A stretch of 64,000 bases of DNA from Trichinella spiralis (Eukaryota): NCBI RefSeq assembly GCF_000181795.1, contig NW_003526943.1, forward strand, positions 7,275,566 through 7,339,565, written 5' to 3'. Position 1 is the first letter of the stretch; each line of letters opens with the position of its first letter. Below are positions 12,981 through 55,400 of the stretch, one piece after another. A model generated the notes under the pieces. It was not told the DNA's origin. It saw only the letters and a program-made list of their open reading frames with translations, and made no database searches. A program made the translations under genes and the position numbers.

Positions 12981-14030
12981 TGTAGTGTTTGCCGTGGTAT
13001 CGTTTGCTGCTATCGCCGAGTCCTGTGAATCCTTACGCACAACAGAACGACGCTTTACTATTCTAGCAATACACACACTAGATATGAGATATGCTGCTGA
13101 CTGCACCGTCTAAGCAACAACCTACAGTTAGAAATCTGGTACTTAAGAAAAGGCGGTAAATTGGTATGCTGGCATCATCCATGGAAGCAGTTCGACCCAG
13201 GTTTCAGGATTATCGCTTCATATGGTTGATGACATTTCCAGGAGGGTGCTATTTTATCTTTCTACCAAATGTTGTACTAGAGATTGTAAGCCCTAGACTG
13301 TATCTGTAGCAGTCGACCCAATTCTGACATCAGCTCTGCTTCTACACTTTGCCGCTGATCAATGTGCAGCTTGTCTGGTGCACCAAAATATACTACGTAT
13401 CTTTCCATTAACGTTTTGGCTACTGTTTGCGCCTCCACATTCAATGATGAGAACACTGCCAGTTACTTTGTGAAGCAGTCGACCACTACTAAAGTAAAAT
13501 GATTTCCAGGCGTTGAACGTAGCCCTGCAAAATCCATGCCCAATCTCTGCGCTGGGTAGTCAGTGCCAATGGGTTTCAAGGGAGCTTCCTTGCTCTTCAA
13601 AGGTTTTTTTAGGGCTGCATACTGTTTGCACGTCCTGCACCACACTTGGATATCATTACTCATCCCGGACCTGTAGAACCGGCTTCTTATCCTAGATAGG
13701 TATAGGTGACCAACATATCGGCTATTGTGCGAGCATCTGAACACTTCTTCTCTGTTTGCTTTAGGCCCCACCAGCTGATTGCTTCCTCCACTCCCAGACT
13801 GGGACAAGCATCTCGCGCCGCGTAGCGCAGTAGCTGCTCTCTGCTTTAGTCAAAGAGTAGCTTGTAAAAGGCACTGCTGGTTCGCTGCCATCGATGTTCT
13901 GACATAGGACAACCCATGGACTATTCCCAATGGAGTCGACATCAATGATGAACATTCGTTCGAAGTTTAAGAATGCCAGTATCAGGAAGATGTGAGGTGT
14001 TTAGAGTTGAACAACAGAAGCTTGCCTCAG
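12981..14030 (-). mobile_element. Heavily degraded Ty3/Gypsy fragment with probable short LTR
   Basis: Broken minus-strand frames give RNase H-like (FIIDVDS..G; SLTKAESSYCATRREML) and integrase-like (CHNSRYVGHL...CRTC; QRLGMDFAG; LVVVDCFTK) peptides. 12981-13126 is bounded by TGTAG...CTACA, as expected for an LTR. Confidence 0.75.
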
Positions 14031-28652: not shown

Positions 28653-30526
28653 CCGTTTACAGGCCGAACTAGTTTCCCGTGTAACAAGTGACTTGATATT
28701 AATGAATTTAACTGTAAATACGTTCACTAAGGCACTGCAAAAGAGTCAGCTTGATTATTTTACGATAAAGTGTTTTTTGAGACGGTTCCCATATGGTAAC
28801 GAAGGCATGTTCTCTGGCGCGTTTACTATTACTCTCTAATAACGTGTTTTACGAGTAATCATTGCGATTCAATGAGCAATAACGTCCTAAAATGTCGATT
28901 TATTTTATTAAATTTTACATTATTTTTAAATATAACAGAATATTTGGAGAAAAAACAATTTCTAATGGACTTAGACTGCTGGTGAACACAGTTACGTAGA
29001 AACGCGATGATACAATGGAAAGCACTTCCTATGCAATCTTTCTCTGCACTCGACACAACGTAGCAGGCAATTTTTCTTACAAACACGACATCGTCCCTGG
29101 GAAATCGGCTCAAGATAATGTTCTTGCGTTATTCTCAAGGTTTCTGGTGGATGAGCTCTTCGTCCAGTCCGAATGGTTAGCTGAGGTTTTGCTCGTAGAA
29201 GATGTGTTGTGATATCTCTTGTGAAATCCAGATGTGACAGGGCAATGGAACTCTCTTGGTGCAATTCCCTGTGTAATCGCCAAGCTGCGACAACAACAAG
29301 GTTCAGTGCATTTGAGAATAAATTCCACCACCACTTTTTTTTATCTCAAACGAGGCCTGTAACTGGACAGCAGCTTATCCAAAATATCTACACCATCCAT
29401 TGATGTGTTGTATCTTCGCACAATTTCCGGCATTCTGATTTTCACGTGCTTCTTTTGCGACTGTAAGTATCGCTGCACTGAGTCGGTTGGGTGATGTGTT
29501 AAGTGATTAGAAGCCAGAGTGACAACGGCGTTGTCGTTCCATCTACAAACATAGACGGTGCCGTTGCATACGTGATCAAAAAAGCCTCTGTGTTTCTTTT
29601 TCACCTCGTCAACCGCATTATCGGTATCTTTCTTGTCCTCGAGTTTTTCATTGTTCCAGTTGTTCGTATCATTTTACCTGAAAGTTTCTCCAGAAGATCG
29701 TATGAGGCAAAGAAGTTGTTAAAGTACAGCTCATGTTTTTCAGGTCTTTCCAAAACTGAAATCATTTCTTCAATGATTTTCATTCCCAGACGCTCACTTT
29801 TTTTTCTCTCATCTCTCCCAGCATAAATCTTCAGCGCGTATGGGTAACCGTTTGCCGATGACATTGTCCATATCTTGTAGCCAAATCTTATTGGCTTACC
29901 ACGTATGAACATTTTGCAACTGTGGCGACCGTAGTAAGGTACCATTCCTTCGTCGATGGACAGCTGCTCATGGAAAATACCGAACTGCCTATGCTTATGC
30001 AACTGTCCAGCAAAAGGAAAGGAAAAACAGCACATGTGACTGTTTTTCTGCTTTTCCCAGATTCCGCTGAACGGGCAAAAGGTCACTTTTGTCTAAGTTT
30101 TCACGTTATATTCAGTGTAGCATAAATTCTATTATTAGGTATGATTATCCATTGTTACCATATGGTAACACATGACTTTAGCACAACTCTCTTCGACGTA
30201 TAATCACTAACGACTGTTTATTTTGTGATGCATAAAAAGGGACCCTTCTGCCTAATAAAAGAAGGCAGCTGTGTAATGCCTCAAGCTATTTGCTGAAATT
30301 TTGTGTTGAAATATCAGCACGAGCTCAAAAAGCTGAAAATTCGCTCTTACTAAAATGACAATAAGTCTACCAATTTTTATTCAAAAAAGATGATATTACT
30401 TTCATTTGAAAGAACTAACTTAAAGGAATTTGAATATGGCAAAATAATTTCCTAGATAAATGAGATTATGTGTCAATAAAGCACCAAACTTTGGGTTACC
30501 ACATGGAAACAATGGCATGTAAACGG
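28653..30526 (-). mobile_element. Defective piggyBac (PGBD2/3-like) DNA transposon with both TIRs
   Basis: TIRs CCGTTTACAGGCC (28653) and GGCATGTAAACGG (ends 30526), 12/13 match. Flanks are TTAG and TGAA, each one change from a TTAA target. Frameshifted transposase 28992-~30000 has LSIDEGMVPY, FIRGKPIRFGYKIW, LYFNNFF, YNTSMDGVDILD and C-terminal Cys-rich RCRVCKKNCLLRCVECRERLHRKC. Confidence 0.9.
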
Positions 30527-30997: not shown

Positions 30998-31122
30998 ACT
31001 GAAGAGTTTGAATCAGTGAGCAATTAGACAAGGAAAACCAATACGACAAAGATTTGACGGTCCAATAAAATAGCGTGGGCAAAGACCAATAAGAGAAAAG
31101 TGGGACCGAATAAAACCACCCC
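30998..31122. repeat. Half copy (one TIR arm) of the MITE at 39769-40055
   Basis: Near-exact reverse complement of the 39769-~39975 arm (GACGGTCCAATAAAATAGCGTGGGCAAAGACCAAT...GGGACCGAATAAAACCACCCC), with fewer internal subrepeats. Confidence 0.85.
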
Positions 31123-31234
31123 ATATTCTATTTTAGCTCACTCAGCGCGTGCTTAAGCGAACCAAAGTTACATAGTAGCTAACGTAGCTCCAACAATGAT
31201 ACTTGATCCAAGCGCCCACTTTGGCGTAAGAGTG

Positions 31235-34200
31235 TGTAACGAGCCACTCCCTCGGGCAGGCTCGTGGACTTCCTCTACCGCGCTATTGGTGCATTCGTCA
31301 CTAAACGGCGACAGACCGGTATTGACAGGCGGGTTTCCCTTTCTTTCCTATTCGCGCTTTCTTGATGGCATTATAACAATCAAACAACAGTCAGTAAGTA
31401 TAGTTTTTATTGGCGACTGCCAGCAAGGACCGCCAACGATGCGTTACAGCAAGCTTTTTCGACCACACAACAACGACCCGCACAAGTACACCCGTACTAC
31501 CGTACTCCACCTCTGATCTTCAAGTCCAAGTCTGCTTACGGTAGCTTCACCTTTCTTCCGCTACGTCGTATGGAGCGTTGTTAGCGTATGTAGTGTGCTC
31601 CTCTTTTTGCGCCCTACTCCCCACGTCTCAGCGTCCTGCTGCCGGTCGTGGTATACATTCAGGCAGTCGAAATGTACCACCAACCGTTGCCTTCCACCAC
31701 CTTTCTTCTCTACGCGGTATGTGCTTCAGTCCAGCTTTTTCTGGACTTCGTACGGGCTGTCCCAGTAAGCCCCAAGTTCGGTCTTCGTCGGGACTTGCAT
31801 CCAAACACGGTCGCCCGGTTTGTACACAGGTCCATGGGCTTTCTGGTCTCTCCAGAACTTCTGGCGCCCCTGCTCTCGGCCAGCCCTTCCCCGTACCGTC
31901 TCGTAGAGCCGCTCCAGGTCTTGCCGCAGCCGCTGTGTGTACTCTCCTACCGACTGTTCTGGCATGTCTCTCAGGAGGCCGTACACCAGGTCAATCGGTA
32001 GCCGGAGCTCTCTGCTGAACACAATTTGGCTGGGGGTTGCACCCGCTGTGTGGTGAACACTGGATTGATAGGCGAGGAGGACTCCATCAAGGTGGGCATC
32101 CCAATCGTCGGGGTGATCGATGGATGCCTTCGCCAAAAGGTCTGAATTTCAGGGTGCGGTTCATCCGCTCCACCCGGCCATCAGACTGCGGGCGGTAGGC
32201 TGTGGCCTGGGTTTTGGCCACCCCGAACAGCTGGCACACCTCCTTCACGAGTTCAGACTCAAAGTTCCTACCCTGATCAGAGTAGAGCGTCTCTGGCACT
32301 CTGTAACGGCAAAAGATGCCATTCACCAGCGCCGTAGCCACGGTACGCGCCTCCGCGTTTGGCAGCGCAAACGCCTTCAGCCACTTCGAGAAGTAGTCGC
32401 ATACCACTAAGATGTACCGGTTCCCGCTCTGCGTTTCTTCCAGGGGCCCCACTATGTCCATACCCACCCGTTGGATAGGGTAGCCGACCGGAAGGAGATG
32501 CATAGGGACCTGGGGCTTCTTTGTCGGGACCGCCCGTGCAGCGCACGTCTGGCATGCCCTGCACCAGTCCTCGACGTCTTCCCGTTGCTGAGGCCAGTGA
32601 TATCGCTGGCGTACCTTTGCCAGCGTCTTCGTCACACCCAGGTGGACCCCTGATTGGCGGTTGTGGATGGCGGCCAGGATCTCCGGGACCCTCTAGGTCC
32701 GTGCCAATCCCATGCTGCGTTACAGTATGGCTGAGGTATTGCACGCTCTGGCGCATAAGCTGGCACTTCCCTGGCTTAACTTTAAGTCCCACCGCTCGCA
32801 GGCGTGACAACACCTCTTCCAGCCGCTCCAGATGTTCTACCTCTGTCCTACCGAAGACGATGATGTTGTCCAACTAGACGACGCAGGTCTTCGAGGTCAG
32901 ACCTCTCAGAGCGGTCTCCATCAGGCACTGGAACGTTAGCAGGGCGTTGCACAAGCCGAATGGCATAACGCGAAACTGAAAGATCCCAAGAGGCTTGGAA
33001 AACGCGGTCTTTTTGCGATCACACTATGCCACTTCCACTTGCCAATACCCGGACGCCAGGTCCAGTGTGCTGAACCACTGGGCCCCTGCCAGTGCGTCCA
33101 AGGTATCAACTATACGCGGGATCGGCTGCGCGTCCATGCGCGTCACCGCATTCAGCTTGCGATAATCGACGCAGAATCAGTGCGAGCCATCTCTCTTCTG
33201 CACAGGACTACCGCTGAGCTCCATGGTCCTGAGGCCGGTTTCATACTCTTGATCGCAGCATCTCATGAATCAGTTGGTCCATCACCGCCCTTTGTGATTG
33301 CGGGAGGCGGCGAGGAGGCTGTTTCACTGGTCGGGCCCCTGCCGTCTCGATGCGGTGTTGGACGAAATTCTTTCGTCCCAGGTCAGTCTCACCACGTGAG
33401 ATAGCCTTCCCGCACCGCCGGAGTACGCCGCTGAGGGCCCGCTTACCCCGCGGCGAGCACTCCGCCCCGTCCACCAGGGAGCGTCCCCACTCTTCCAGGT
33501 CACCGTTGTTGGTCTCGGGTCCCTCCCTTACGGTCTCCTCCAATGGTACCTCCCAAGGACCTGGCGTAATCCAGGCGCATTCGATGCTGGGACGTGCTGC
33601 TTGGGCAGGTTTGCGGACAATCCGGACCCTAGAGCCGTCCGTCATGGTCATCTCCCAGGCTTGCCAGTCGATCACCTTGACGAACTGGTTGAAGAAGTTC
33701 GTACCCAAAATCCCCGGTACGACCAGGCTCTCCACAACTGCGACGTATATACGTCCTCTCCAGTTTCTGATCTGAAGGGACCACATTCCCTGGCTGCAGA
33801 GGCGCACCTTTCGCCCCTCACATAGTAGGATGGAGCCTTTGGATAGCGCATAGCTCCCATTGGTGGACTTGTGCCATGTTGAGAGCGGTACTATGGAAAC
33901 AACCGCCCCACAGTCCAAAAGGAGTGAAATCTCCAGCCCATTTACTTTACCTGTAACGGACGGTGATTGTCTAGCTTGGATTTCCGTCATTGCCAGGAGA
34001 CGGTGATCCCTGGTTCCACTGCTCGAAGCACGCGCCGACCGGGTTCGGGCCCGTGGCGGGGGATAGTCTCGTCGAAAGTGGCCCAGGCCACCGCACTCGA
34101 AGCACTCCATTGCCCTCCGTGTGGGTTGCAAGTAAGACGGCCGTTTCCCGAGGCAGCATCGTCGACTGTTCTCCGCCAGCCTTCCTCGATCTCAGTTACT

Positions 34201-35044
34201 CTTTCCGCCAACTGGCGTGTCTTTGTGAGAGCCGCCAGCTCCCGCAGGCAGAGCTCTTGATGGAGTTCTTTGGACGCCAGGCCGATGATGAAACGGCTGA
34301 CCAATTTGCTTACTGATTTCCCGGCTCTGCGTCCCATTTCGGCCACTTCGCGTGCGAAGTCTCGGATAGGCTGATCCTTTCGCTGCGCAGGCCACTGAAA
34401 CGCATTTCCAACCGGATCAGAGACTCGCTCAGGCCGTAGGAAGTCAGCAGGCGACGTTTAAGCTCCTGCCAGGAACTGTCCCGTGACGACCCGGGCGAGA
34501 ACAGCTCGCGTCGCACCGCTTCCGTCATAATCAGGCGAGCGCTAGCGGCTTGGTGGGAGGGGGGCACACCAGAGACGAAATGAAGTCTTCGACCGTGTCC
34601 ATCCACTCAGTCAGATCCATTTCCAAGGAAAAGGCAGGGGGTGGACAGTAACAAGCAGTTGCGGCTCCCCTCAACGCCATTTCCCTGACAGACCCCAAAT
34701 ATAACGAGCCGCTCCCTCAGGCAGACTCGTTCACTTCCCCCACCGCGTTATTGGCGCATTCATCACTAATCGGCAACAGGCCGGTACTGACCGGTGGGTT
34801 TCTGGCATTATAACAATCAAACAACAGTCAGGAAGTATAGTTTTTATTGGCTACTGCGAGCAATGACCGCCGACGATGCGTTACAGATAGCTTCTTCGAC
34901 CACACAACGACCCTGCACACGTACACCCGTACTACCGTACTCTACCTCTGATTTTCAAGTCCAAGTCTGCTTACGGTAGCTTCACCTTCTTCCGCTTCTT
35001 TGTCTGGAGGAATAGAGTTGCTAGCTCGGTCTGCGTCCGCTACA
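31235..35044 (-). mobile_element. Ty3/Gypsy LTR retrotransposon, both LTRs present, internally deleted and pseudogenised
   Basis: LTRs at 31235-~31618 and 34700-35044, outer termini TGT...ACA. 4-bp TSD AGTG at 31231-31234 and 35045-35048. Gag zinc knuckle CFECGGLGHFRRDY, protease LLDCGA, RT (MPFGLCN; YLDD decayed to *LDN), integrase (CxxC, RVGMDIVGP, YSDQGRNFES, VERMNRTL). Many stops and frameshifts. Confidence 0.95.
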
Positions 35045-35486
35045 AGTGCGTAATAGCGGAAGTAGGCACTTGATTTTCAGGTACAGTTAACTGTCGTATC
35101 GAGCAGTTTGATTTTAAATTTATCCAGCTCTATGGTGATTTGTATGAACCCTTCAATTACCTAGTTATTTTGGCATAATTTGGAATTATTTATGATGCCA
35201 TTGTTGACTACCAAGATTCATGGCTGAATTTAATATAACTTCGTGAGAAATGTTCTACAAATATTAATTGAAAAATCACTTTCAATTCACCCTAATCACG
35301 CAACATTCTGTTGCACTTTTATGTAAAAAATTTACATTCTTTGAAGGAAAAATGGTGTAAAAACAAACTGTTTCATTAAATCAGATAAATAATTTGTACT
35401 GTCGTTTGTGAACTGTAAAGATGATATTGAACCAGAACCTTAAACATTAGTGATGCATTTCAACAAAGAAGCATCGTTAATGTGTG

Positions 35487-35828
35487 TACTGTGAACAGAA
35501 GTACAGTACACCAGTACTTGATTATCTTTAAAACGGTAATGTTATATGTAGAATCTTTGTGACGTGTGTAGTGGTCTTTGGTGACGTCACGTGTCAGTCG
35601 TGTTTTTACCGTGTGGTCATTTTATTGTATTACGATATTGATTTTAGTGTTTCTTTTGTCCACCCGTTTTGAGTTTGCACTAAATAAACGGTGTGAACAA
35701 TCAACTGGGTTTTGTTGAATCACGTTCGATTCTGCGAGGAAGACAATCGCGTGCGAACAGTTGGAACTGCACCTGAATAAATCAGATACACCTTGAGGAT
35801 AAAGTTGCGCTTCATTGCGTTCGCAACA
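35487..35828 (+). promoter_or_regulatory. Putative 5' LTR of the BEL/Pao element, candidate promoter of the PFK retrogene (3' boundary uncertain)
   Basis: The first 70 bp match the 3' LTR. It contains AATAAA (35683, 35776) and ends at ...GCAACA followed by TTTTG. The 3' limit is a guess from the CA terminus. Confidence 0.55.
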
Positions 35829-36103
35829 TTTTGTTTCTCAGAGGCGTATTTGGTTAATTACATCGAAGCAGCGAGCTTGGCGCGTTTCAAGCTCTTGGAC
35901 ACACCTTCTTGTCACGAGTTGGGCAACAGCTTGGAGTTGTTTACGAAATCTTCAAGTTGAAACGGTTAGCTTGGCGTGATCGACGCAATACCCAAGGTAA
36001 AATTGCTATCCTCTTCGAAGTAGTTGGTTGTGAACAAGGACCGGTTACACGTTCTATTGGAAGAGATTTACCAACTGTGTAGAAGTTCAAAGAACAGATC
36101 TTG

Positions 36104-38644
36104 ATGTCGGAAGAACTTGACAGCGAGACGAATGCACTGGCAAGCAGCACTTTTAGGACGCGGTCAGTGGATATGAGTCTCTCAAAGAATGGCTCTACTG
36201 TAGGATTATCTCCGTCTCTCAAATCAAGTGCGTCGGTTCCGCTCATGGAACGACTGCTGGATGAGTGTTCAAATGAGTTTCCTTTCAAACGCACCAACAG
36301 TGCCATTTGCAGTCTCACTCGCGATAGTGAGCACCTGCGTCCGCATTTGCACAAGGGGCGTGTACTGGCAGTGCTGACATCCGGAGGGGATTCTCCAGGT
36401 ATGAACGCAACGTTGAGAGCAGTGTGCCGTATGGGATTGTATCTAGGTTGCCAAGTTTACTTCATCCACGAAGGCTATCAGGGTATGGTCGACGGCGACA
36501 GATACATAAAAGAAGCAACTTGGAACAGTGTTAGTGATATAATTCAAAAAAGTGGAACTATCATCGGCAGTGCACGTTCGAAAGATTTTCAAACAAGACA
36601 GGGTCGTCTGAAGGCTGCGGAAAATTTAATGAAACGCAGCATCACAAATTTGGTCTGCATTGGCGGCGATGGCAGTTTGACAGGTGCGAACACATTTCGC
36701 CAAGAATGGCCGGAATTGTTAGGCGAATTGGTCGAGAGTGGTCGCATTAGCGCAGAAAAAGCCAAACAATTTCCCAACATCAACATCGTCGGATTGGTTG
36801 GTTCGATTGATAATGATTTCTGCGGAACCGACATGACCATCGGTACGGACACCGCTTTGCACCGAATCATCGAAGCTGTCGATGCCGTTCAATCTACTGC
36901 CCAAAGTCATCAACGATCTTTTGTGATCGAAGTTATGGGACGACATTGTGGTTATTTGGCATTGGTGGCCGCGTTGGCTTCTGAAGCAGATTGGGCTTTC
37001 ATTCCTGAATGGCCACCGCCGGCTGATTGGCGCGATATTTTCTGCACCCGCATGCAACAAGCTCGAGAACAAGGACAACGAGTGAATATTATTATTTGTG
37101 CAGAAGGAGCGGTCGACCGTGACGGCAATCCAATTACAAGCAATATGATTCGAAATTTGATCGTCGATCGTCTACACTACGATACCAGAGTGACCGTTTT
37201 AGGTCACGTACAGCGTGGTGGCAATCCGTCCGCGTTTGATCGTCTGCTTGGAAGTCGCATGGGCGCTGAAGCGGTTTTGGCGTTGATGGACACTTCCCAG
37301 GATGCAGAATCTTGTGTTATTGCATTGGACGGCAATTCTATCGTCCGTGTACCTCTGATGCAGTGTGTCGAACGTACTCAGCTTGTACAAAAGGCGATGA
37401 AAGAAAAGAACTGGGAATTGGCGGTCAAGTTGCGAGGTCGAAGTTTCCAAAGAAACTTAGAAACGTACAAGTTGTTGGCAAAGTTGCGCCCGCTGACCGA
37501 AAAGGGAAATCTGAGCGGTGGTCACATTTTCACGCTAGCTGTGATGAACGTCGGCGCCCCTGCTTGCGGCATGAACGCGGCCGTGAGATCCTTTGTTCGC
37601 AACGCCCTTTGCCACAATTGCAGGGTGTTGGCCGTGAAAGATTCATTCGAAGGTTTAGTGAAAGGCAACGTGCAGGAGATGAATTGGTGCGACGTGAGCA
37701 ATTGGTCCATGTTTGGCGGTTCATTTTTGGGAACGCAGAAGTTGTTGCCGACTAAAAATATCGAAAAGGTGGTCGAACAGTTGCGCCATTTTAAAATCGA
37801 CGGTCTCTTTTTGATCGGAGGTTTCGAGGCTTTTCATTCGTGCTTAATCATGGCTGAAAATCGTGACAAATACAAAGAATTTTGCATCCCAATGATGGTT
37901 TTGCCATGTACCATCAGTAACAACGTCCCCGGAACCAGTTTTTCTGTTGGCTCTGATACAGCGTTGAATGAAATTTGCAATTTGATTGATAAAGTGAAGC
38001 AGTCAGCTACTGGAACAAAACGGCGCGTGTTCATCGTGGAAACAATGGGCGGTTATTGTGGTTATTTAGCAACGTTGTCCGCTTTGGCATCAGGAGCTGA
38101 CAACGCGTACATTTTCGAAGAACCTTTCACTGTCGATGATATTAAAGAGGATGTACGCGTAATTGCGCAGAAAATGGTCAAAGGTGTTCAGCGTTACATC
38201 ATCATGCGCAGTGAAAATGCCAATCCAAATTACACAACCCAGTTCATCATGCAACTCTTCAGTGAAGAAGGCAAAGGTGAGTTCAGCACTCGTATAAATA
38301 TTTTAGGACACGCCCAACAAGGTGGAAGTGCCACACCGTTTGATCGCAACTTGGCTACTCGAATGGCTGCGCATGCGGTGGAATTTTTGGTTGGCAAATG
38401 TCAAGAATTTTTTCAACCCCACAACGGCCATGTTTTCACCAACACACCTGATTCGGCCGTATTGCTCGGCATTCAAGCACATCGATCTCAAGCGACGCCG
38501 ATTCAAGAAATAAAAGAGAAGAGCGATTTTGTTCATCGTTTGCCAACGGAACAGTGGTGGCTGAAGCTGCGACCGTTGCTTCGCATTTTAGCCAAACACG
38601 ACAGCATATACGAAATGTCGGCCGTGAGGAAGGACTTGAAATGA
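36104..38644 (+). CDS. PFK: ATP-dependent 6-phosphofructokinase, eukaryotic tandem-domain type, intronless
   Basis: One uninterrupted 846-codon ORF (first ATG 36104). Motifs [45 protein letters not shown] and LGHVQRGG, plus regulatory half [24 protein letters not shown] and [14 protein letters not shown]. Confidence 0.98.
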
Positions 38645-39137
38645 TGGTCACTTTTGTTCTATTCTCTAGCCTAGTGTGAACAATAATGATTATTATTCTA
38701 GTTTGATTGATAATAATAATAATAATATGATCTTTATGGATGGAAACTGGCCTCTAAAAATTAATCCATGTAGTAGGAATTCACTTTTTTATTCAATAAT
38801 TACTTTTTTTCTTCCATTTCTAAAACAATTTTCTAGTTCTCCCCCTTCCTCTCTATTCTTTCTATGAAAATTTTCATATAATCTGTAGTCAACAGCAGCA
38901 TGATGTTATACAATTTAAGCAGCTGCAAAATGATGGATGCCATCCATCAGTTTGATGCCATTTTCCACTTTCACATATTTAGATTCAGGATGCATCAAAA
39001 GAAGAGCGACTGACTTTGTTTTGTCTGCTCTATATGAATTCATTATTCACTGCGTAAAGCACTACAGATTGAATATTCTTTTTTCTCATTATCCCGTAAA
39101 AGTTTGTCTAAATAAATAAATAAATATGTATGTACGC

Positions 39138-39671
39138 ATATGGAAAGCAGTAAAGTATGCTCAGCAGGACAGACGCAGAGGAACTAGAGACAGTCCTTTC
39201 TGAAATCGAAGCCAGGATAAACAATCGACCTTTGATGATCATGAGTGACTGTGCCGATAACGACTTGGCATTGACTCCTGCGTATTTCTTGATCGAGAAA
39301 GAATTATCGCCACTCCCAGACCGTGATAGCGCGTCCGGAAGACGATAGCAATCTGAAGCGATTGCACTGGTAATGGCAATACCAGCGAAGCTGGTGGAGC
39401 ACCTCTGGACGCATTGGAAGAGAGAGTATCTGGTAACTCTGCCTAACAGAGGAAAGTGGAGGAAACTCAGAAAAGAACCACAAGTAGGAGACATGATGTT
39501 GATCATGGAATAAAACCATCCTTGGTACTGATGGTTACTCAGGAGAATCCTTGAGCTGCACCTAAGCCATGATGGTAATACCTGCTCTGCTTAAGTAAAA
39601 ACCACCAGGGCAACCGTAATCTGGTCAGTGCGATTACTGATCACGTTGGAATCCGCAGGAAGATCGTTATA
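39138..39671 (+). pseudogene. BEL/Pao integrase C-terminal remnant
   Basis: EELETVLSEIEARINNRPL..LALTPAYFLI, then LWTHWKREYLVTLPNRGKWRK..EPQVGDMMLI..W..RRILELHLSHDG, with several in-frame stops. Confidence 0.9.
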
Positions 39672-39768
39672 GGCTCTGCCTATCACCTGGGGGGAGGATG
39701 CTGTAAACAGAAGTACAGTACACTAATACCTGATTATCTTAAAGACGGTAACGATATTTGTAAAATCT

Positions 39769-40055
39769 GGGGTGGTTTTACTCGGTCCCGCTTTTCTCTC
39801 ATTGGTCTTTGCCCACGCTATTTTATTAGACCGTCAAATCTTTGTCGTATTGGTTTTCATTTTATTTGGCCGTGAAGTCTTTGTCGTATTGGTTTTCCTT
39901 GTCTAATTGCTCAGTGAAGTCTTTGTCGCATTGATTTTTTTTGTCTAATTGCTCATTGATTCAAACTCTTCAGTTGTGATTAAGATTTGACGGTCCAATA
40001 AAATAGCGTGGGCAAAGACCAATGAGAGAAAAGCGGGACCGAGTAGTACCAAACC
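39769..40055. mobile_element. MITE with ~75-bp TIRs and internal ~40-bp tandem subrepeats; abuts the truncated 3' LTR
   Basis: GGGGTGGTTTTACTCGGTCCCGCTTTTCTCTCATTGGTCTTTGCCCACGCTATTTTATT at the left end and its reverse complement ending 40055. Internal TCTTTGTCGTATTGGTTTTC-type unit occurs three times. Confidence 0.88.
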
Positions 40056-41096: not shown

Positions 41097-42463
41097 AGCA
41101 GGGCATATAAATTAAAACGTGCCGGCAAACAGAAATATTGGAATGCTCGAAACTATGTGCTAAATGTGGTGTGTTTCCTTAGTTATTTATTAAGGGTTAG
41201 TTTATTTTGGTACAAGATAAAAAAGGCTGCGGTGGTGTTATATGGACAAACCTTGAAGCAAACAGAATGATCACATCGAAAGCTGCCCGGCGGATGAGCA
41301 CTTGGCATACAAAATGGAAAAGAAGACGCTTTTGAAAAAGCGAAGCGCAGAAGAAACAAAACCCATCCCAGCCATTTATGATGAGGAAGCTTCCGCCGAG
41401 TCCGCCGAGCCATTCACATCTGGCTATTTTCCGCTCTTTAAACGGGTAAAGTCCACGATGTACAGCCACCGGGCAAAGCGATATCCAAAACTGCCCAATC
41501 ATCGTCGGGACCTGCAAATCCTTGTCCCGTTCAGGACAACGAAGGCCGGAGAAGATTTTTTATTGTGGCAGTGTGCATCGAGGCATATACTGGTATTTGC
41601 TACGGGTTACAACATTAGACTGCTGGCAGCCATGCGAACCTGGAGCATGGATAGTACTTTCAAGGTTGTACCACAATGGTATCAACAACTGTTTACCATC
41701 CATGCCTTTGTGGCGGGTAAGCTGGTGCCAGCAGTCTACTGTGATGTACGGGTAAAGATACTAAAAAATACGGGTTTATTTTCCAAGCTTTAATAAACAA
41801 AGCGGCAGCCTTCGGGGTCAATCTCAATCCTACAATAATTTGTGATTTTGAAATAGCCCTGATACCCACGATTCAGGGCTCCTTCCCGAATACGCGGGTA
41901 CAGGGCTGCTGCTTCCACTTCTGCCAGGCGGTACATAGGAAAGTCGGTGAGATGGGACTGAAAACACCATATCGAACGGAAGAAGGAACAAGAAAGATAA
42001 GAATGCTCCTGTCCACCGCTTTCCTCCCTGTACCGCAAGTTGATACGGGTGTTAGCCTGCTTGAAGCAGGCACTACGGCTACATTAGCCGCTTTATTTCA
42101 ATATTTTCGGCAGGAGTGGATGACCGATGAAAGACTGCCACTTTGGAATGTACATAATGTAAATATCAGAACCAATAACGACTTGGAAGGTTAGGACAAT
42201 CGGCTCAACAGAAAAGCGGCTAAAAGTCATAACGGGTTGTATGAACTGCTCCAGATCCTGATAGCAGAATAGGGTGTGATGGACACCCAGATTCGACAAG
42301 TGCTATCAGGAAACGCTACCGTTTGCAACTTAAGACGGGTAAACAAGGTTTATGCTGAAAAGCAACAACGAGTTGCCCAATATACGGGTGAATACACCAA
42401 CGGTAGTCGTACCCCGAGCAGTTCCTTGAAGCATTAATGTACATAACGCCGGAGCCGATTTAA
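41097..42463 (+). mobile_element. Mutator-like (MULE) transposase pseudogene
   Basis: WSMDSTFKVVPQWYQQLFTIHAFVAGKLVPAVYC, IICDFEIALIP..QGSFPNTRVQGCCFHFCQAV, IRTNNDLEG*. Frameshifts and stops. Confidence 0.9.
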
Positions 42464-48011: not shown

Positions 48012-49505
48012 TCAACTGCAAGTGAAAATCTGGTCGGCCATGCGCAGTATTGCTTGATTCCACGTATTCAACGTAAGCTCAGCCAATTGACGGCAATTCG
48101 GATCCAAATCTCCAGTGCGCACCCGTTCCAGCCAATCAACGCGTTCCCGTAAGTTCTGCTCTCCCAAATCTGCAAACAACAATTCAACAGGCAGTCGACT
48201 TAGCACCGCTAAAAAGGCAAACAACAAGCCGGCTCGAACCAGCGGCTCTTCGTGATTACAGTGTTCAGGCCAGCCGACAGTGATCGTCAACTTCGCCATA
48301 GAACGTAGCTGTGCCGAATGACCAGCGGCCAGAAGAAGCGTGGCCAACGTGTGCACGAACACTCCAAGAACCAACGGCTCTCGCAGTGCCGTACTGTTCA
48401 CAGTATGACGACGGTCGATCAGCATGTCGAAAATGCCGGCCGCAATACTGGCAAATCGATTCACACGGCAGCGGTCCGCTGATTGGTCATCATACTTCTG
48501 ACGTCGAACGGTCTTCGCTTCGATTCGTTGCTGTAACACTGCTCGCCAACCGTCACGCACCCATTGTTCCGGTGCTAAAGCTCCGGATTTCAGCAAACTG
48601 TTTTCCACATGCTTCTGTTGTTGTTTAGTATTGTTATTTGCATCTCGAGACAACAATTCCGCCGCGGTGCACAACACACGCAGCACTTCGACGCGCATGC
48701 CAACGGTAAGTGCGCGAGAATAAAATTCTTGGCACAAATAGGCGGCCACGTTCAGAGGATCAGAAATCACGCAGCCGACCAAACATTTTACCCTGAGTTG
48801 GTCGTGCAATTGTTGCGCGAATTTGTTCTCCAAATGCAAAAGCACCTTTGCCACGTGGCCAGCCAACTCGCCAACGCCCGGCGTAGAGCGTTCTTTGAAC
48901 AGAACTTTTTCCAACGAAAGCAACGCCATCTCGAAACAATCGTAATCATCACTTTCCACACACAACAACTGTTCCAAACAATCTTCGATGTAAGACAACT
49001 GAGATGACTGTCCTTTCCTGCGACGCATCAACTGCTCATCTTCCTCCAACTGATAATGATCAGTCATTGTTTCTGAATTGTCTTCATCTTCGTCATCATC
49101 ACTATCCCGTAGATTTATCTGCAAATAATGTTCTTCTTAGGGCAAAAAATAAGATTAAAAAATGATTATTAAGAAATTTTAAACAATAAATTATTTTCAT
49201 CTCAACCTGAATCGGTATCTTCTCATCAGTTGAATCAACTGACAGCACTGTGAAATCGGACAAAATATCCTCTGCCGATTCTTGTTCAGACAATGGCAAT
49301 TCATCTTCCAACATTGCGCGCAACGATGCGACGAAATCGTCCTCTTCATAATTGAATTTCACATCCTCGACGGGCATTTTCAACATGCTAACCAAAGCTT
49401 CGCCAACCACCATGCCTAACTGTTGCACATTCGACGACAATCCGCCAAGATGATTGTACATCCCCTGTAAGAACAAACTGTGATAACAACAACAACAACA
49501 ACAAC

Positions 49506-49543
<38 letters not shown>

Positions 49544-50717
49544 GCAAGAATGAAAGAATTTAAAAAAAAATCACATCTAGAACAAAAGGTGCTGCTTGAT
49601 TTTCCAACTCTTCCATCCAGTGACGACGTACCAACTCTTTGGCAGTGAGCAAAAGTGTCTGAGCAACGTAGCGCTGCTGCTGTACGGTAGTGTTGACGAT
49701 GCTCGATCTGAAAGACCAGTTTTGCAAGCTGAGCAAAAAAATCTCCTGCAACAGAACCTTCTCCTGTTCACCACCGACCAATTTCAAATAACCAATCACC
49801 AGTCTTGGTACGGTGGCCGTGTCGAAATGGCTGGTAAAAAGCAGACTGCGACTGAGCACGAACCGTGCCTGGTCGTCGACCACACCGAAATCGTCGACCA
49901 ACGTGTGCAAATCAGACGCCGACTTGAGTAGCAATATCAAATCAGTGAACAACTGTTTCACCGCATCGGCTGGACAAGCTCGAAATAGCTGGTCGAACCA
50001 CACCCTCCGCCCTCGGCGCCGCGCGTTTCTTGCCCTGCGCAACGCGAACGGCAACAACGCTTCGAGCAAGCGACGCTGCCGGCCAGTCAGGCAAGCTTTG
50101 CCCAGCAGGGCGCCGTGAAAGCTCATCTCCAACTCTGATGTGTTGACCACCGCCCCGGTCAACTGGTCGTCAATTTGTCCCAACGAGCGCACGTAGGCTG
50201 AACAAAAATTATTCCAATAGACAGTGAGGCGCTTTTTCGCCTCGCGCGGCTTCAACAAGCCGACCAGGCGATCCGGGATGGCGAACAACGCCTGACAAAG
50301 TTGCCCTTGCATAGACCGGTCGCAGGGTCTGTGTCCGTCGTCCGCATTGGCCATCGAAGTGAACAACTGGTCGAGCTTGTGTTGGCAAAATCGTTCCACA
50401 ATCAGGACGAACTTGGGAACCACGAACGGCGAAATTCTGTCCGGCGGTTTCGAAAGGAGAAGAACCACGTCGGCCGGATTGGCGCGCAAAAAAATTGAAT
50501 AGAACAACTCGTCCTGTTCAACGGGAAGCAGCATGTTGAACGTTGACGGCTTCAACGTCTGGAGCAGAACTTCACCGACGCGAAAAAAAGAACCAAAATT
50601 TTGATTTTCAACGACATAATTGCCAATATCCAACAAACACGAACGCAATTCCAACCGACTACTGGCGGACAGCAGACGTTTCAGCAGTGTCGTTGTCGTC
50701 GACTTGCATTCAGACAT
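48012..50717 (-). CDS. TELO2: Telomere length regulation protein TEL2 homolog (clk-2), 3 exons
   Basis: Exons ~50717-49576, 49464-49207 and 49118-48012. QQRYVAQTLLL, GMYNHL..VQQLGMVVGEAL, CK2-type DSDDD motif, VLLHLENKF, YLCQEFYS..LTVGMRVEVL..AAELLS, QRIEAKT, NRFASIAAGIF. Confidence 0.85.
49484..49542. repeat. Compound (AAC)n(AAT)n microsatellite in TELO2 intron 1
   Basis: Directly visible tandem array. Confidence 0.9.
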
Positions 50718-52447
50718 AGCCTTTCTTGAAACAAAATTTGTTTTTTAAAAAAAGGTCCAATCATACACGAATTATTAATAATAAATATTGTTTGCACAAA
50801 ATTGAACAGCATAACAAGATTGAAATTTTTCACGTCATTCAGATGAAGAAAGTAATTTAAACCAAAATTTGAAATTTGAACCTTTTAAATTTGAAATAAA
50901 TTCAAGCAGAATAATAATATTGAACAGAAAGGATTTCCTCTTTACTAATAAATGAATCAAAGTCAAACAACCAATTATTATTATTATTATTATTATTAGA
51001 AATTCAACTTGTGAACAAGCTGAACAACAGATAAACAACATCAACAAAATTATACACTTTTTGAATAATAAAAAATTTTCAAATCGAAACATATTTATTC
51101 CATGCTGACACTGAAATGTTGACGGTGCAAGGTTAACAATTGGCAAATTTGTACTTTGAAACTGTAATAAATATTAATGACAGTCAAAGAAGAAGAAGCA
51201 CAACTGTTGCATTTCACTGCAACAAAATGGTTAATTTTCAAAATGACAAAACAATAAAAAATTAAAACAAATGCATTGAATTAAAACAAAATTATAAATG
51301 TTTCAATCAGCTTCAGCTCCAATTAATCAATCATTTAAAACCAATTACACGCAATTTTCCTATTCCTAAAAAGAGCGAGAGAACACATTCCCCCCCCCCT
51401 CCACACACGTGTAATCATCATTTTTGAAACATCATACAAATTAGGATAAAAATTGCAAGTACGAACTTAATGGATAAATAAAAGTTACAACACAGTTCTT
51501 TGGGATAATATCGCTTGTATCGACTAAAAATTGCAATTTCAAATGTCAACGGTTGAAAATCAATAAATAACTGGTAAACTGAATCAATTCACTTCAGTGC
51601 GTGTCATATTTCGAAATCACTAATAATATGAATTAATGGCCGTATTCAAGTTTCAGTTGTTTCTATGAATTATTTCTAACTTTCATCCGCGAAACTTTCG
51701 ACAAAATTACTGCAAATTGATAAGCTCTATAAATAAACAAATAATTGCATAGAGAAGAGAAAAATATTATTATGTATTACTATTATTATTTTAATTTATT
51801 TGAAATCATACTTTTGCTTTAGATAGAAATCATTATGAAAAATGAATGACCGTTTATTGTTGATAAAAATGCCGCGAAATAAATCAAGTAAATTAAAAAA
51901 AAATTTCCTCTGCAACAATAAATAATAATAACAAGTTATAAAATACCCAAAATAATATAAATAATTATTGAGGCAAATTTCAATAGTTAATATTATTAAT
52001 GTAATAGTTTCATAATAAATTTGTTAAAGTTTAAAAAATATATCGAGAAATATATATATATATCGTTTCGCTCTTTTTTCTTCACCAACCGACAACCGTT
52101 GATGACGAACGACAAGCTTCATTGTTGACATGCTTTACCATAGCAACGAGCAGAGAGAAGGTGGACAAAATGCACAAGGACAGAGTTGAATGTTTAAGAT
52201 TGTAAAGTAGATGCACGCAGAGCAGCGGAGTTGCACAAAGCCACAGTCACAGGCACAGCCACAGTGACGGATGGAAGCGCGCAAATTGGATCGATGAAGC
52301 GACGGTGCCCACGGTCTGCTTCACGCATCCAGTGAAAGAAAATAAGCCGACGTTGGAATTGGCCAAATGTTATTGTCTCCGCTCTGGCCAGTCTGTTAAC
52401 ACGCCAAATGCGACCGCCCAATTGCAGGAGATGAGCCGTCTGGTCAG

Positions 52448-55400
52448 ATGGAACGCCGACCGCAGCGAGCCGGCAAAAGCCTCGCCCGCAAAACCGCCGA
52501 ACGGATACTGGCGGCGACACGGGAAAATGGCCAGAGCAATTCGACAGAACCCGCAGGTTCAACTTCAACTTCCCTTTCAAGTCAACTCACCCCGACGGAC
52601 GACACACCCGAAAACCCCCGGCGACCCCTGGCGATGGCGCCTTCGCCCAGGCACAGTACCATGGTCGTTGTCAATCGTCAATCTTGGGATGCGGATTTGA
52701 ACGAACACTGCCCAACCGATCGAACAAGCAGACTGCGCCACTCGCTCACTTCGCCAAATTTACAACTGCCAAAAATCTACCTCTCCGACGTACGCGAAAA
52801 GTAACTCAACAACAAATAAATAAACAAATGAACAAAATATCCAATTGATTTTTAATTTTAAGCAAACGAGGAAGCATTGTCACTGCAACTCTACTTGGTC
52901 CGGATGAGTTAGATCGAATATTGCCAGGCCGGAAGCTCAACTTATTTGTTGCAACGTTCAACATGGCAGGAAAGGTATTCGAATTTCACGTTGTAAATCA
53001 TTTAAAAATATGACAAACTAATTTAAAGCATGTGGTGAAAATTTTTTTCTCTCTCTCTTTACAGTAACTGAACAACATAAATAACAGAATACAGACAAAA
53101 AATCAATACATACAATCAAACAACAGGGATTGTGTGATGTTAAAATTCCATTAAGCAAAAGATATAACAAGATTAAAATAATATCCCGCTTTTCAAAGTG
53201 CACGTGAATTTTCATATTCAACAGTGTGGAACAATTTCTTATACTTGTGTTTGAAAGTGAAAAGTGATATTTACTTTGATAAATAATAAATTTAATCAAT
53301 AGCAGTTGGCAGGGTGGAGTTGAAATTTCTCAACCGACGTTAGAAGAAAAGCTTTCTTTTTATTACGCTTTGATAGACAATTTCATTGAACGATAAATGT
53401 GTTTTCTTGACAATTATTCTGAGTATTTGCAATTTTTAATTTATTAATTTTTTTCAATAATACTTTCAATAATTAATTAATACTTTCCATTTTTTTTAAT
53501 TGAATTATTTATAAAAATTGTAAATTCAGTTATTATTAAACAGAACAAAAAACACTGAGAAATAAGAAGATAAATATGAATTATCAATTTTAGAATTTAA
53601 CGGAAAATGAATTGAAAGATTGGCTAATGCCAGCAGCCATGGAACATGCCGCCGACCTTTATGCCGTTGGCATACAAGAAGCGTCAGCTAATTGCAGCTC
53701 GTATATTAAAAAAAACAATTTTTTTTCCTCCTTTACAACTAACTCTTTCTAATTGAATTTGATTGTATTTTTATATTTGAATCTGTGCGTGCAGAAAAGA
53801 ATTTCGTATGTGGGAAAAGAGTTTGCAAAAATGCTTATCAACGTGCAAACAAGTGCTAGTACGATCGGTGTGGATGGGCGTTCAACATTTGGCATTGTTC
53901 ATTCGTCGAGAGCTCGTCTGGTTCATCTCCGGTAAGTGCAATGAAATTATCAATCATATTATCAATAAAACGAACATATATATAATTGTTGCGTGAATTT
54001 GCTTTGTATAATTTGCATGAATTCAATCTCAGAATAAAATGTTCCCAACGGTCATTGAAGAATCGTTTCGCTAACAACAATGAATAATAAATGCAATGCA
54101 ATTGAAATACAACTATGCAACAAGTGAAAATTAATTTCTCATCACAATATTCATCATGTGTGAAAAGTATTTTTTAAACAAAGCTTAATCTCATAAATAT
54201 GTTGTTAGTAGAAAATCTTCTGTCAAAAAGAATATTTTTTTGCAAAACATAAAACATCAATTATTATTATTATTTATTAAACGAAATATTAAATTTCGCC
54301 CCGTTGCCATTGATAGAATCGAACACATACGAAAAAAATACAAGGCCAATTTCCAACGTGCGAACAAAAGGAGCAATATCGATTTTCATGAAACTGTTCG
54401 GAACGACCTTCTTGTTCATCTCCTGTCATCTCAGTCGTAAGTATTCATTTATTCATACGTGAAGAGGGAAGAAAAAAAATTTTAATTTCAAAATCAATAA
54501 CCAAAGCCTTTTTTGGTGAAATGGAAACGAAAAGAAAACAAATAACACAAAACTTAACTTAGCACGTTAGCAGAAAAGCCTTATAATTGCTACAAATTCA
54601 ACAAATGATGAAAACCAAATTAAAACAAAAAAAACAACACGTTCCCATTTCAGTTGTGTTGGTAGAAATTTAAATGTACTGAAATTGAAATTTTGCCTTA
54701 GACGGCCCAGATGCCCGTCCCAGGATATCCGAATGCAACAGGATATTACAGTTCCTGCGTCAAAATATGGCCAGCTATTCGAATGAAAACGTGTTCGACG
54801 GATCCGACTACGTCCTCTGGTTTGGTGACATGAATTTCAGATTGAACGTCGATCCGGCACTGTTGGGTGCGTTGCAAAGCAGCCCCCCGACGTCCAAAGA
54901 TCTGCCTCAGCTGATCAAACGGGATCAGCTGTTGTCGGCGATGAAGCAGGGTCAATTGTTGAGCAAATTTCACGAGTGTCCAATTGAATTTTTACCCTCG
55001 TACAAGTTCATCATCGGCACAAGCGATTATTCGATCCAATTTCGACTGCCCGCCTACACGGTACTAAAGCAGAGTTGGTTTTGTTACTGTAAAATTTCAA
55101 GTTCTGTTTTCACTTTCAGGATCGCATATTATTCAAAAAGAAAGAATCGGACAACAATTTTATGGAGTGCCTTCATTATAACACAGCGTACAATATCTGC
55201 TCATCTGATCACAAGCCTGTATTCGCTCACTTCAAAGTGTACATTCAGCCTGAAATTCAAGAGTAAGCAAATTTGTTTTGCCAATTCTTTTTTCCATTCT
55301 CTTGCAAAAGTGTTACTTTCAGAAATCGAAGAAGTTCTATCATCATGTCCACTCTACATCAAAGTAATCGAATTTGCAAAAAAATAATCAATGATATTAA

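What the first reader, a model, noticed from the sequence alone, without database searches (positions are those of the whole stretch)
35487..39768. Intact intronless phosphofructokinase carried inside a dead BEL/Pao LTR retrotransposon: candidate LTR-transduced, domesticated glycolytic retrogene
Seen: 5' repeat (35487-35556), then a 2541-nt PFK ORF without introns, ~480 nt of AT-rich 3'UTR, a Pao integrase C-terminal remnant with stops, the PPT GGGGGGAGGA, and the 3' repeat starting TG (39699-39768). All are on one strand in canonical LTR-element order, with PFK replacing most of gag-pol. The repeats differ at 11/70 sites and the TE coding remnants are wrecked, yet 846 PFK codons and the catalytic motifs are open. 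Every other host gene in the window has introns. Established: LTR elements and retroviruses can capture spliced mRNA by template switching. Inference: a host PFK mRNA was transduced long ago and is kept by selection. It may be a stage- or tissue-specific isoform, or it may have replaced the parent gene. For a key regulatory glycolytic enzyme that would be unusual.
Basis: partly seen in the sequence, partly recalled or inferred. Interest (0 to 1): 0.92.

Follow-up and report, generated by a model that had tools for sequence, protein, structure and literature searches.

The report
Retrotransposon-captured phosphofructokinase gene in Trichinella
In the parasitic worm Trichinella spiralis an intron-free second copy of the glycolysis gene phosphofructokinase lies inside the wreck of a BEL/Pao LTR retrotransposon that likely captured its mRNA; the copy is transcribed, apparently from the element's own end repeat, is under strong purifying selection, and is shared by several capsule-forming species, while the original gene persists elsewhere in the genome.

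Summary
Confirmed and extended. The window is Trichinella spiralis. The 846-codon PFK (36104-38644) is a processed copy of a parent PFK beside COX11; at least three parent introns and one alternative exon are missing. Both flanks match best to one Trichinella BEL/Pao family: 5' LTR (about 342 nt, not 70), worn primer site and gag start on the left; integrase end, PPT and a MITE-truncated 3' LTR on the right. DNA contigs of two studies span both junctions. Stranded RNA runs from inside the 5' LTR through the gag remnant and PFK to the captured poly(A) signal. The 536-nt leader has no ATG, so the first start codon lies in the gag remnant. dN/dS against the parent is 0.03-0.04. Orthologues occur in four more encapsulated taxa, and a published gene-family table puts one PFK gain at a node I infer to be the encapsulated ancestor. 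The copy has not replaced the parent: published RPKM 6/32/15 versus 931/445/189 (newborn/muscle larva/adult). LTR-mediated retroposition is known; a full-length, old, fixed, LTR-driven copy of a core enzyme is an unusual case. A germline, possibly out-of-X, role is my best guess and is untested.

The parts
35487..35828 (+). 5' LTR of a BEL/Pao element (about 342 nt, ends ...CA); RNA coverage begins inside it, so it is the likely promoter
   Evidence: First 70 nt repeat at 39699. T. nelsoni model KRX16017 continues from the integrase remnant into sequence similar to 35550-35784. Similarity of another LTR-like genomic copy stops at 35828. RNA contigs begin at 35568 and 35577; raw reads are absent before bin 35442-35612. 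The 3' end is inferred.
35829..35850 (+). degenerate primer-binding site (inferred)
   Evidence: Translated, 35819-35842 reads VRNILFLR against VANILVLR at the matching position upstream of gag in two family members; a weak score on its own (25).
35988..36135 (+). gag N-terminal remnant; broken (no start codon at the family's start position, a stop near 36021, a frame change near 36080); supplies the first ATG (36104) and about 11 N-terminal residues of the PFK
   Evidence: 35955-36077 scores 72-74 against family member P0171; best of 40 shuffles 70; best of 40 other long BEL/Pao-type proteins 44. The [11 protein letters not shown] / EIEEQLRTSEE piece that carries the ATG is weak alone (score 25) but collinear.
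36104..38644 (+). PFK retrogene ORF, 846 aa (T. spiralis KRY39009 / XP_003377600; by length EFV57155.1)
   Evidence: Catalytic and effector motifs present. dN/dS 0.03-0.04 against the parent.
36136..39130 (+). captured host mRNA: parent isoform with N-terminal exon A, coding region and 3' UTR down to the AATAAA signals at 39111 and 39119
   Evidence: Parent RNA contig stops matching before 36136; parent 3' similarity continues in patches to about 39099. Parent introns are absent at 36397/8, about 36683 and 38509-38519. The 3' end is approximate.
35568..39087 (+). transcribed span (LTR leader, gag remnant, PFK, 3' UTR); the leader 35568-36103 has no ATG
   Evidence: X21 stranded raw reads all lie in one orientation; X13 and X14 contigs with 0-2 differences per piece. 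0 ATG against 7.3 expected, 0 of 5000 shuffles, 0 of 1238 control windows.
39163..39666 (+). BEL/Pao integrase C-terminal remnant (DUF5641), 4 stops in 171 codons, no RNA coverage at 39204-39545
   Evidence: 54% identity to KRY58771.
39689..39698 (+). polypurine tract
   Evidence: Sequence.
39699..39768 (+). first 70 nt of the 3' LTR, truncated by a MITE
39769..40055 (.). MITE with about 70-nt inverted ends, inserted later; not part of the retro-element
   Evidence: Inverted repeat I2 and a second copy at 30998-31130; loose ends at 39769 and 40055.

Best explanation
This is a transcribed, intron-free second PFK gene under strong purifying selection, embedded between the 5' and 3' remnants of one BEL/Pao LTR retrotransposon family, which likely captured a spliced full-length PFK mRNA by two template switches during reverse transcription and now likely serves as the gene's promoter and start codon. 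Shown: the anatomy, the parent, intron loss, same-family flanks, transcription across the LTR-gag-PFK junction, constraint, and orthologues in five encapsulated taxa. Inferred: reverse transcriptase switched from the integrase region onto the 3' end of the PFK mRNA, and back to gag at the mRNA's first coding exon, replacing about 4.5 kb of gag-pol; the chimera integrated in or before the ancestor of the encapsulated species; the TE coding pieces decayed while the LTR promoter and an ATG-free leader were kept; translation starts at an ATG within the gag remnant. Role (inferred, about even odds): a minor isoform for the developing gonad, probably male germline, that complements a parent which may be X-linked; it does not replace the parent.
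For: Parent and intron loss: multi-isoform PFK beside COX11 in all listed Trichinella species; parent DNA/RNA contigs at 8-12% difference with introns at 36397/8, about 36683 and 38509-19; alternative exon B absent from the copy. Same family at both ends: the KRY58771/KRX13279 family is top for the integrase piece among 1.84 billion representatives and holds the top 4 of 46 long proteins for the 5' piece. Captured ends coincide with mRNA ends (36136; about 39099-39124); no poly(A) tract is visible. Contiguity: X2 and X8 contigs span 35300-36365 and 38585-39760. Transcription. Selection: 46 synonymous and 8 nonsynonymous differences in codons 108-335, dN/dS 0.038, Fisher p 1e-25; about 0.03 over 702 codons; about 20 stops expected at the integrase remnant's rate, 0 seen; leader without ATG. 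The T9 orthologue has K at the parent-derived second Met, which fits use of the gag-derived ATG. Clade: retro clade 100/100; PF00365 family +1 at node 16 and 0 on all 12 Trichinella tips, node read as the encapsulated ancestor from patterns. Role: 5-fold up from newborn to muscle larva while the parent falls 2-fold, and the same profile as a third PFK; C. elegans has a sperm-specific second PFK; parent/copy DNA depth medians 0.58 and 0.70; T. spiralis is XX/XO.
Against: Copy-parent dS (0.4-0.6) is much larger than LTR-LTR divergence (0.18 on only 70 nt); this needs a later re-mobilisation, constraint on the LTR, or small-sample error. The closest extant family is only 54% identical, and the gag match is short (72-74 against a shuffle maximum of 70 in 40). 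Microsimilarity at the switch points and target-site duplications could not be shown. The copy makes only about 0.6-8% of the parent's RPKM and about 18% of site-reads in X21 (204 of 1119, non-independent). No protein or activity evidence. The tree does not settle whether capture preceded the encapsulated/non-encapsulated split (61/92; p-AU 0.47). Contig depth is not a copy number; one of four X2 pairs gave ratio 1.0. X13, X14 and X19 are only guessed to be RNA; X21 depth on the copy is about 5. EFV57155.1 is matched to this ORF by length and name only.
Confidence: 0.85

Rival explanations
1. Same origin, but the copy is kept as a somatic isoform for the encapsulated muscle larva (glycolysis in the low-oxygen nurse-cell capsule), possibly with altered allosteric control.
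For: Peak RPKM in muscle larvae (32 against 6 and 15). The gain maps to the node inferred as the encapsulated ancestor. About 19 fixed changes lie on the copy's stem, two at nearly invariant sites: T103 (A in 103 of 108 homologues) and H793 (R in 104 of 108; aligned to human PFKM R716).
Against: The parent is still 14-fold higher in muscle larvae. The third, more divergent PFK shows the same stage profile, so the profile is not special to this copy. Muscle larvae also carry developing gonads (recalled). One clade-level coincidence is a single event.
Confidence: 0.3
2. A PFK cDNA made by a non-LTR (LINE) enzyme inserted into a pre-existing BEL/Pao element, and the missing 4.5 kb of gag-pol was deleted at or after insertion.
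For: The captured piece is a full-length mRNA ending near its poly(A) signal, as LINE-made copies do. Microsimilarity was not shown. Old poly(A) tails decay.
Against: It needs both deletion ends to coincide with the mRNA ends, in sense orientation, with an in-frame gag join. No poly(A) tract or duplication is visible at the PFK borders. Discontinuous same-family flanks are the published hallmark of template switching.
Confidence: 0.1
3. The flanks are independent TE fragments around an ordinary retrogene, or the locus is mis-assembled.
For: The region is TE-dense: a Gypsy element ends at 35009, and a MITE, a MULE and an assembly gap at 40326 lie downstream. No single contig spans the whole element.
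Against: Matching LTR starts, canonical order and one best family at both ends; both junctions inside contigs of two studies; RNA across the 5' junction; integrase remnant and PFK copy on contigs of the same length, 125495, in T. nelsoni.
Confidence: 0.03

Closest known systems
LTR-mediated retrocopies of animals (Tan et al. 2016, PMC5131818; includes Pao BATUMI in Drosophila and BEL18_AG in mosquito)
   Same: Host mRNA copy between discontinuous pieces of one LTR element; no poly(A) tail; co-transcription with the LTR; BEL/Pao carriers are already documented.
   Different: Those cases are young or polymorphic and often partial, and the authors say LTR-driven transcription may be restricted to a short period around fixation. 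This copy is full-length, at least about 5 My old by the published dates, fixed in several species, at dN/dS 0.03-0.04, still transcribed from the LTR region, and appears to start in gag. The paper's main text has no occurrence of 'nematode' or 'elegans'.
Maize Bs1 (as described in PMC5131818)
   Same: An old host-gene capture flanked by an LTR element and transcribed.
   Different: Bs1 is a mosaic of partial exons from three genes and is multicopy; this is one complete enzyme, apparently at one locus.
Pxyfem of Plutella xylostella (PMC9674220)
   Same: A functional product of LTR template switching with fossil gag remnants beside it.
   Different: Partial, multicopy and a source of silencing RNAs, not a protein.
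Trichinella pseudospiralis thymidylate synthase retrogene (PMC4022200)
   Same: An expressed intronless copy of a housekeeping enzyme in the same genus, reported in muscle larvae (abstract).
   Different: Reported as identical to the T. spiralis coding sequence; the abstract names no LTR carrier and no selection test.
C. elegans pfk-1.2 (bioRxiv 10.1101/2025.11.09.687253)
   Same: A second nematode PFK expressed almost only in sperm: the functional analogue for the germline reading.
   Different: Not shown to be related by descent; the Trichinella copy derives from the Trichinella parent.

Membership tests
LTR-mediated retrocopy (Tan et al. 2016) | Internal host sequence lacks the parent's introns | tested here: met
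   Three parent introns and alternative exon B absent.
LTR-mediated retrocopy (Tan et al. 2016) | Flanked on both sides by discontinuous pieces of the same LTR family | tested here: met
   One family is best at both ends; gag residues to about 50, then integrase from residue 1558 of KRY58771. Protein level only; the gag match is short.
LTR-mediated retrocopy (Tan et al. 2016) | Microsimilarity at both switch points | tested here: inconclusive
   The 5' join is in frame and located to about 36130-36136, but no close nucleotide copy of the carrier was available for either end.
LTR-mediated retrocopy (Tan et al. 2016) | Co-transcription with the flanking LTR | tested here: met
   Single contigs 35568-36351 and 35577-36365 cross the junction; stranded raw reads in one orientation from the LTR to the 3' UTR. 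The exact start is not mapped.
LTR-mediated retrocopy (Tan et al. 2016) | No poly(A) tail at the retrocopy's 3' border | tested here: met
   None visible after the AATAAA signals; age could have erased one.
LTR-mediated retrocopy (Tan et al. 2016) | Element and insert both absent at the orthologous site of an outgroup; target-site duplication around the element | not testable with these tools
   No eukaryote genome held; the 3' LTR end is missing from the window.
BEL/Pao LTR retrotransposon | Integrase C-terminus with DUF5641 at the 3' end; relatives carry DUF1759, Peptidase_A17, RT and integrase domains | tested here: met
BEL/Pao LTR retrotransposon | Paired LTRs TG...CA, primer site, PPT | tested here: inconclusive
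   PPT and 3' TG present; the 5' copy begins TA and ends CA at 35828 (inferred); primer site degenerate; 3' LTR truncated.
Eukaryotic ATP-dependent 6-phosphofructokinase | Two PFK domains with catalytic and effector motifs | tested here: met
   (full-length alignment to human PFKM, 1040 bits).
Eukaryotic ATP-dependent 6-phosphofructokinase | Enzyme activity and allosteric regulation | not testable with these tools
   Needs recombinant protein.
Functional retrogene | Purifying selection and expression | tested here: met
   dN/dS 0.03-0.04; open ORFs in 5 taxa; RNA.
Out-of-X germline retrogene | Parent X-linked, copy autosomal | tested here: inconclusive
   Parent/copy contig depth 0.49, 1.0, 0.59, 0.57 (X2) and 0.69, 0.69, 0.77, 0.72 (X8); different scaffolds in the 2011 assembly, 12.0 Mb for the copy and 7.6 Mb for COX11; chromosome assignment not found in the papers read.
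Out-of-X germline retrogene | Male- or testis-biased expression | not testable with these tools
   Only mixed-sex stage data were found.

The most novel reading that the evidence does not exclude
A BEL/Pao retrotransposon gave the ancestor of all capsule-forming Trichinella a complete new phosphofructokinase in one step, with promoter, leader and start codon supplied by the element. The gene has stayed under LTR control for 5-18 million years, has changed at near-invariant residues, and serves a niche the (X-linked) parent cannot: male germline or the encapsulated larva.
Probability: 0.4. Interest if true: 0.82.

Novelty: new member of a known kind. Interest (0 to 1): 0.66.

Why it matters
It appears to be a rare case in which LTR-mediated retroposition can be followed to its end state: an old, fixed, strongly constrained enzyme gene whose carrier is still readable (LTR, primer site, gag, integrase, PPT) and still transcribed with it. 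Tan et al. suggested that LTR-driven expression may fade soon after fixation; this locus tests that directly. For Trichinella it adds a paralogue of the rate-limiting glycolytic enzyme that seems to mark the encapsulated clade and rises in muscle larvae. That makes two questions testable: whether encapsulation came with a metabolic gene gain, and whether clade I nematodes show out-of-X retrogenes. Studies of Trichinella PFK should also separate three paralogues.

Tried and rejected
No genome is held for the window, so synteny and an empty outgroup site could not be examined. The run search listed no holder on record as RNA; this blank is not used as evidence. The exact ORF sequence is not in the protein collection; its nearest record differs at 1 of 846 residues. 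The rest of the 3' LTR was sought in the window with the window's own 5' LTR: best local scores 29-44, nothing found. Pfam found nothing in the gag remnant. The script crashed on its last query (P0167 has no annotated gag Met), so its P0167 rows are not valid tests; only the P0171 rows are used. The first tree had three outgroups truncated by my slicing error and was replaced (15 rows, three Trichuris outgroups, other nematodes left out). A search for short, broken orthologues with residues 1-70 gave 0 of 19 candidates; it is weak. 'Replaced the parent' is rejected. The PFK-COX11 fusion proteins are annotation artefacts of the parent locus (PMC12964723). Gaps in the T6, 2011 T. spiralis and KAL1243221 models look like gene-caller introns and are not counted as breaks; their DNA was not seen. 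DGE tag counts for Tsp_02091 (6/0/2) could not be assigned to this gene and are not used. One chimeric-looking contig (X19 record 17) joins copy-like and parent-like parts; I read it as an assembly join at shared words. The chromosome of the parent was not found in passages of PMC9187692, PMC7181701, PMC9071541 or PMC13334664. Earlier-findings look-ups returned nothing. No structure or complex job was run.
Full report
1. Observation. The ORF 36104-38644 is open for 846 codons and encodes a two-domain PFK. It differs at 1 of 846 residues from T. spiralis KRY39009, which identifies the organism. The repeats at 35487 and 39699 differ at 11 of 70 sites. A PPT precedes the 3' repeat. 39163-39666, read with X at its four stops, matches DUF5641 at E 8.7e-18.

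2. The carrier. The integrase piece's best relative is a full-length Trichinella BEL/Pao polyprotein family (KRY58771, 54% identity; 5 hits among 534 candidates). The same family ranks first among 1.84 billion representatives (154 bits, next 124). Its leader and gag start match 35955-36077 with score 72-74. The best of 40 shuffles anywhere in the window reached 70. Among 46 proteins of at least 1400 aa, the four top scores for the 5' piece belong to this family (74, 55, 52, 52), and the 40 non-family proteins reach at most 44 (mean 30). Two family members lack the matching N-terminus in their models and score 39-40. The translated LTR-end/primer region of two members (VANILVLR) matches 35819-35842, which puts the 5' LTR at about 35487-35828. 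Two observations agree. A T. nelsoni model on a contig of the same length as that species' PFK copy (125495) runs from the integrase remnant (42 of 42 residues identical) into sequence like 35550-35784. In DNA runs, similarity of another LTR-like copy ends at 35828. In the window the 3' LTR is cut at 39768 by a MITE, and no remainder was found. About 4.5 kb of gag-pol (family residues about 50 to 1557) is replaced.

3. The parent. Every Trichinella species listed has a multi-isoform PFK, annotated beside COX11 in four of them (the fusion models are artefacts according to passages of PMC12964723). At 80% likeness, DNA runs X2 and X8 each give two contig sets: one with 0-5 differences per piece and one with 8-12% differences. 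The parent has introns at 36397/8, at about 36683 (DNA loose end in X8, crossed without a gap by a parent RNA contig in X19) and of about 60 nt at 38509-38519. It is uninterrupted from 36769 to 38508. The copy carries N-terminal exon A spliced directly to the common exon, without alternative exon B. Parent similarity starts at 36136, ten bases or fewer into a parent exon, and continues in patches to about 39099, just before AATAAA signals at 39111 and 39119. An essentially complete spliced mRNA was captured. No poly(A) tract is visible.

4. Contiguity. Contigs of two studies span the 5' junction with flank (35300-36365) and the 3' junction (38585-39760). No contig spans the whole element and no long reads were laid. 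I laid 6 of the 24 listed runs (X2, X8, X13, X14, X19, X21).

5. Expression. In X21 (stranded raw RNA, 18% of the run read, depth about 5) all reads between bins 35442 and 39032 lie with the first mate on the minus strand, which in most stranded libraries means plus-strand RNA; depth is 0 before 35441 and at 39033-39545. Contigs of X13 and X14 (RNA by guess) cover 35568-39084 and 35577-39087 in pieces, each with one piece across the gag-PFK junction. The leader 35568-36103 holds no ATG: 7.3 expected, 0 of 5000 shuffles, 0 of 1238 control windows. Part of this may be inherited from the element's own leader. The first ATG lies in the gag remnant, in frame with PFK. The T9 orthologue has lost the parent-derived second Met. 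In supplement Table S5 of PMC4053732 (rows seen by search; file cut when stored) a PFK of length 2541, EFV57155.1, has RPKM 6.0, 32.1 and 15.1 in newborn larva, muscle larva and adult; EFV52062.1 has 931, 445 and 189; a third PFK, EFV56808.1, has 7.4, 30.5 and 12.9. I assign the first to this ORF by length and the second to the parent by level; both are inferences. In X21, 204 of 1119 site-reads at 39 of the 40 listed sites carry the window allele (one polymorphic site dropped; 255 further rows not shown; sites share reads).

6. Selection and age. The 54 listed differences over codons 108-335 give 46 synonymous and 8 nonsynonymous changes, dN/dS 0.038; the contig totals over 702 codons (218 differences, 24-25 amino-acid changes) give about 0.03. 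This is a pairwise value over both branches, but about 20 stops would be expected in the copy at the integrase remnant's rate and none is present. Orthologues with the same gag-like N-terminus exist in T. nelsoni, T6, T. murrelli and T9, 4-16 differences apart. None was listed for the other four encapsulated or the three non-encapsulated taxa, but 13 of 28 members of one cluster were not shown. The copies form one clade (100/100, stem 0.03). Their place as sister to the encapsulated parents has support 61/92, and an origin before the genus split is not rejected (p-AU 0.47). Supplement ST8 of PMC13334664 lists the PF00365 family with +1 at node 16, +1 in T. suis and 0 elsewhere. The part I read gives no node key; gain/loss patterns fit pre-order numbering, which makes node 16 the encapsulated ancestor. 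That paper dates the encapsulated crown at 5.55 My and the genus split at 18.07 My (section 2.2). Against a simple history, copy-parent dS (0.4-0.6) exceeds LTR-LTR divergence (0.18 on 70 nt).

7. How it most likely works. Inferred: during reverse transcription in the particle, the enzyme switched from the integrase region to the 3' end of a co-packaged PFK mRNA, and back to gag at the mRNA's 5' end (model of PMC5131818; abstract, discussion and passages read). The chimera integrated and was transcribed at once from the 5' LTR; it ends at the captured poly(A) signal, so the integrase piece is silent and decays. Selection kept the ORF and an ATG-free leader. For the role I commit, at about even odds, to a gonad or male-germline isoform. 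The profile (low in newborn larvae, higher in muscle larvae and adults) is shared with the third PFK; C. elegans has a sperm-specific second PFK (passages); parent contigs run at median 0.58 and 0.70 of the copy's depth, near the 0.5-0.75 expected for an X-linked gene in an XX/XO species. The tool warns that contig depth is no copy number, so this is a lead. The rival is a somatic isoform of the encapsulated larva; T103 and H793 replace residues kept in 103 and 104 of 108 homologues, the latter aligned to human PFKM R716.

8. Novelty. LTR-mediated retroposition, also by BEL/Pao elements, is published. I found no description of this locus as a retrogene in the listings of four searches: Trichinella + phosphofructokinase (20 of 41 listed); Trichinella/retrogene/retrotransposon (15 of 709); gene identifiers (1 paper, on the other PFK); Trichinella/Pao/LTR retrotransposon/retrocopy (15 of 15). 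The pangenome paper's main text has no occurrence of 'phosphofructokinase' or 'PFK'. The library lacks most subscription papers, and bioRxiv supplements are closed. Also seen: PMC4022200 (abstract), PMC9674220, PMC9187692, PMC7181701, PMC9071541, PMC11731790 and PMC3429391 (passages; the last also supplement rows). Verdict: a real and well-supported new member of a known kind, unusual in age, completeness, constraint and retained dependence on its carrier.

Noticed in passing
window 31237-35009, minus strand: A decayed Gypsy-type LTR element (protease, RT, integrase hits; LTRs 81% alike) ends about 480 nt upstream of the BEL/Pao 5' LTR, head to head with it.
   Followed up: no
window 39769-40055 and 30998-31130: A MITE with about 70-nt inverted ends and internal 40-nt repeats, with a partial second copy; RNA reads of both strands map to the family.
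   Followed up: partly
window 29601-30092 (-), 41745-42194 (+), 13358-13849 (-): Remnants of a DDE_Tnp_1_7 transposase, a MULE transposase and another integrase.
   Followed up: no
parent PFK, corresponding to window 36340-36400: The parent has two mutually exclusive N-terminal exons, each with its own TSGGD motif and its own basic-X-S motif; exon B resembles the Ascaris RSDSIV stretch (its role as a phosphorylation site is recalled).
   Followed up: partly
parent PFK, corresponding to window 37675: Two T. pseudospiralis models carry a 23-residue insert at GNVQ/EM where the T. spiralis parent DNA contig has no gap: a possible intron gain or loss within the genus.
   Followed up: no
parent PFK, corresponding to window 38523: RNA contigs of X13 and X14 diverge here, which suggests an alternative C-terminal exon of the parent.
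   Followed up: no
window 35668-35828: DNA runs X2 and X8 hold further 80-90% alike copies of parts of this LTR that are not in the window; one may be the displaced rest of the 3' LTR.
   Followed up: partly
outside the window (PMC4053732 Table S5): A third T. spiralis PFK, EFV56808.1 (length 2316), has nearly the same stage profile as the retrogene; it may be an older germline-type paralogue.
   Followed up: no
window 17915-21516, 48012-50744, 54689-55387, 63332-63751: Neighbouring host genes: a translation-factor GTPase, a Tel2/CLK-2-like protein, an inositol 5-phosphatase-like protein and a RhoGEF; useful as synteny anchors.
   Followed up: no
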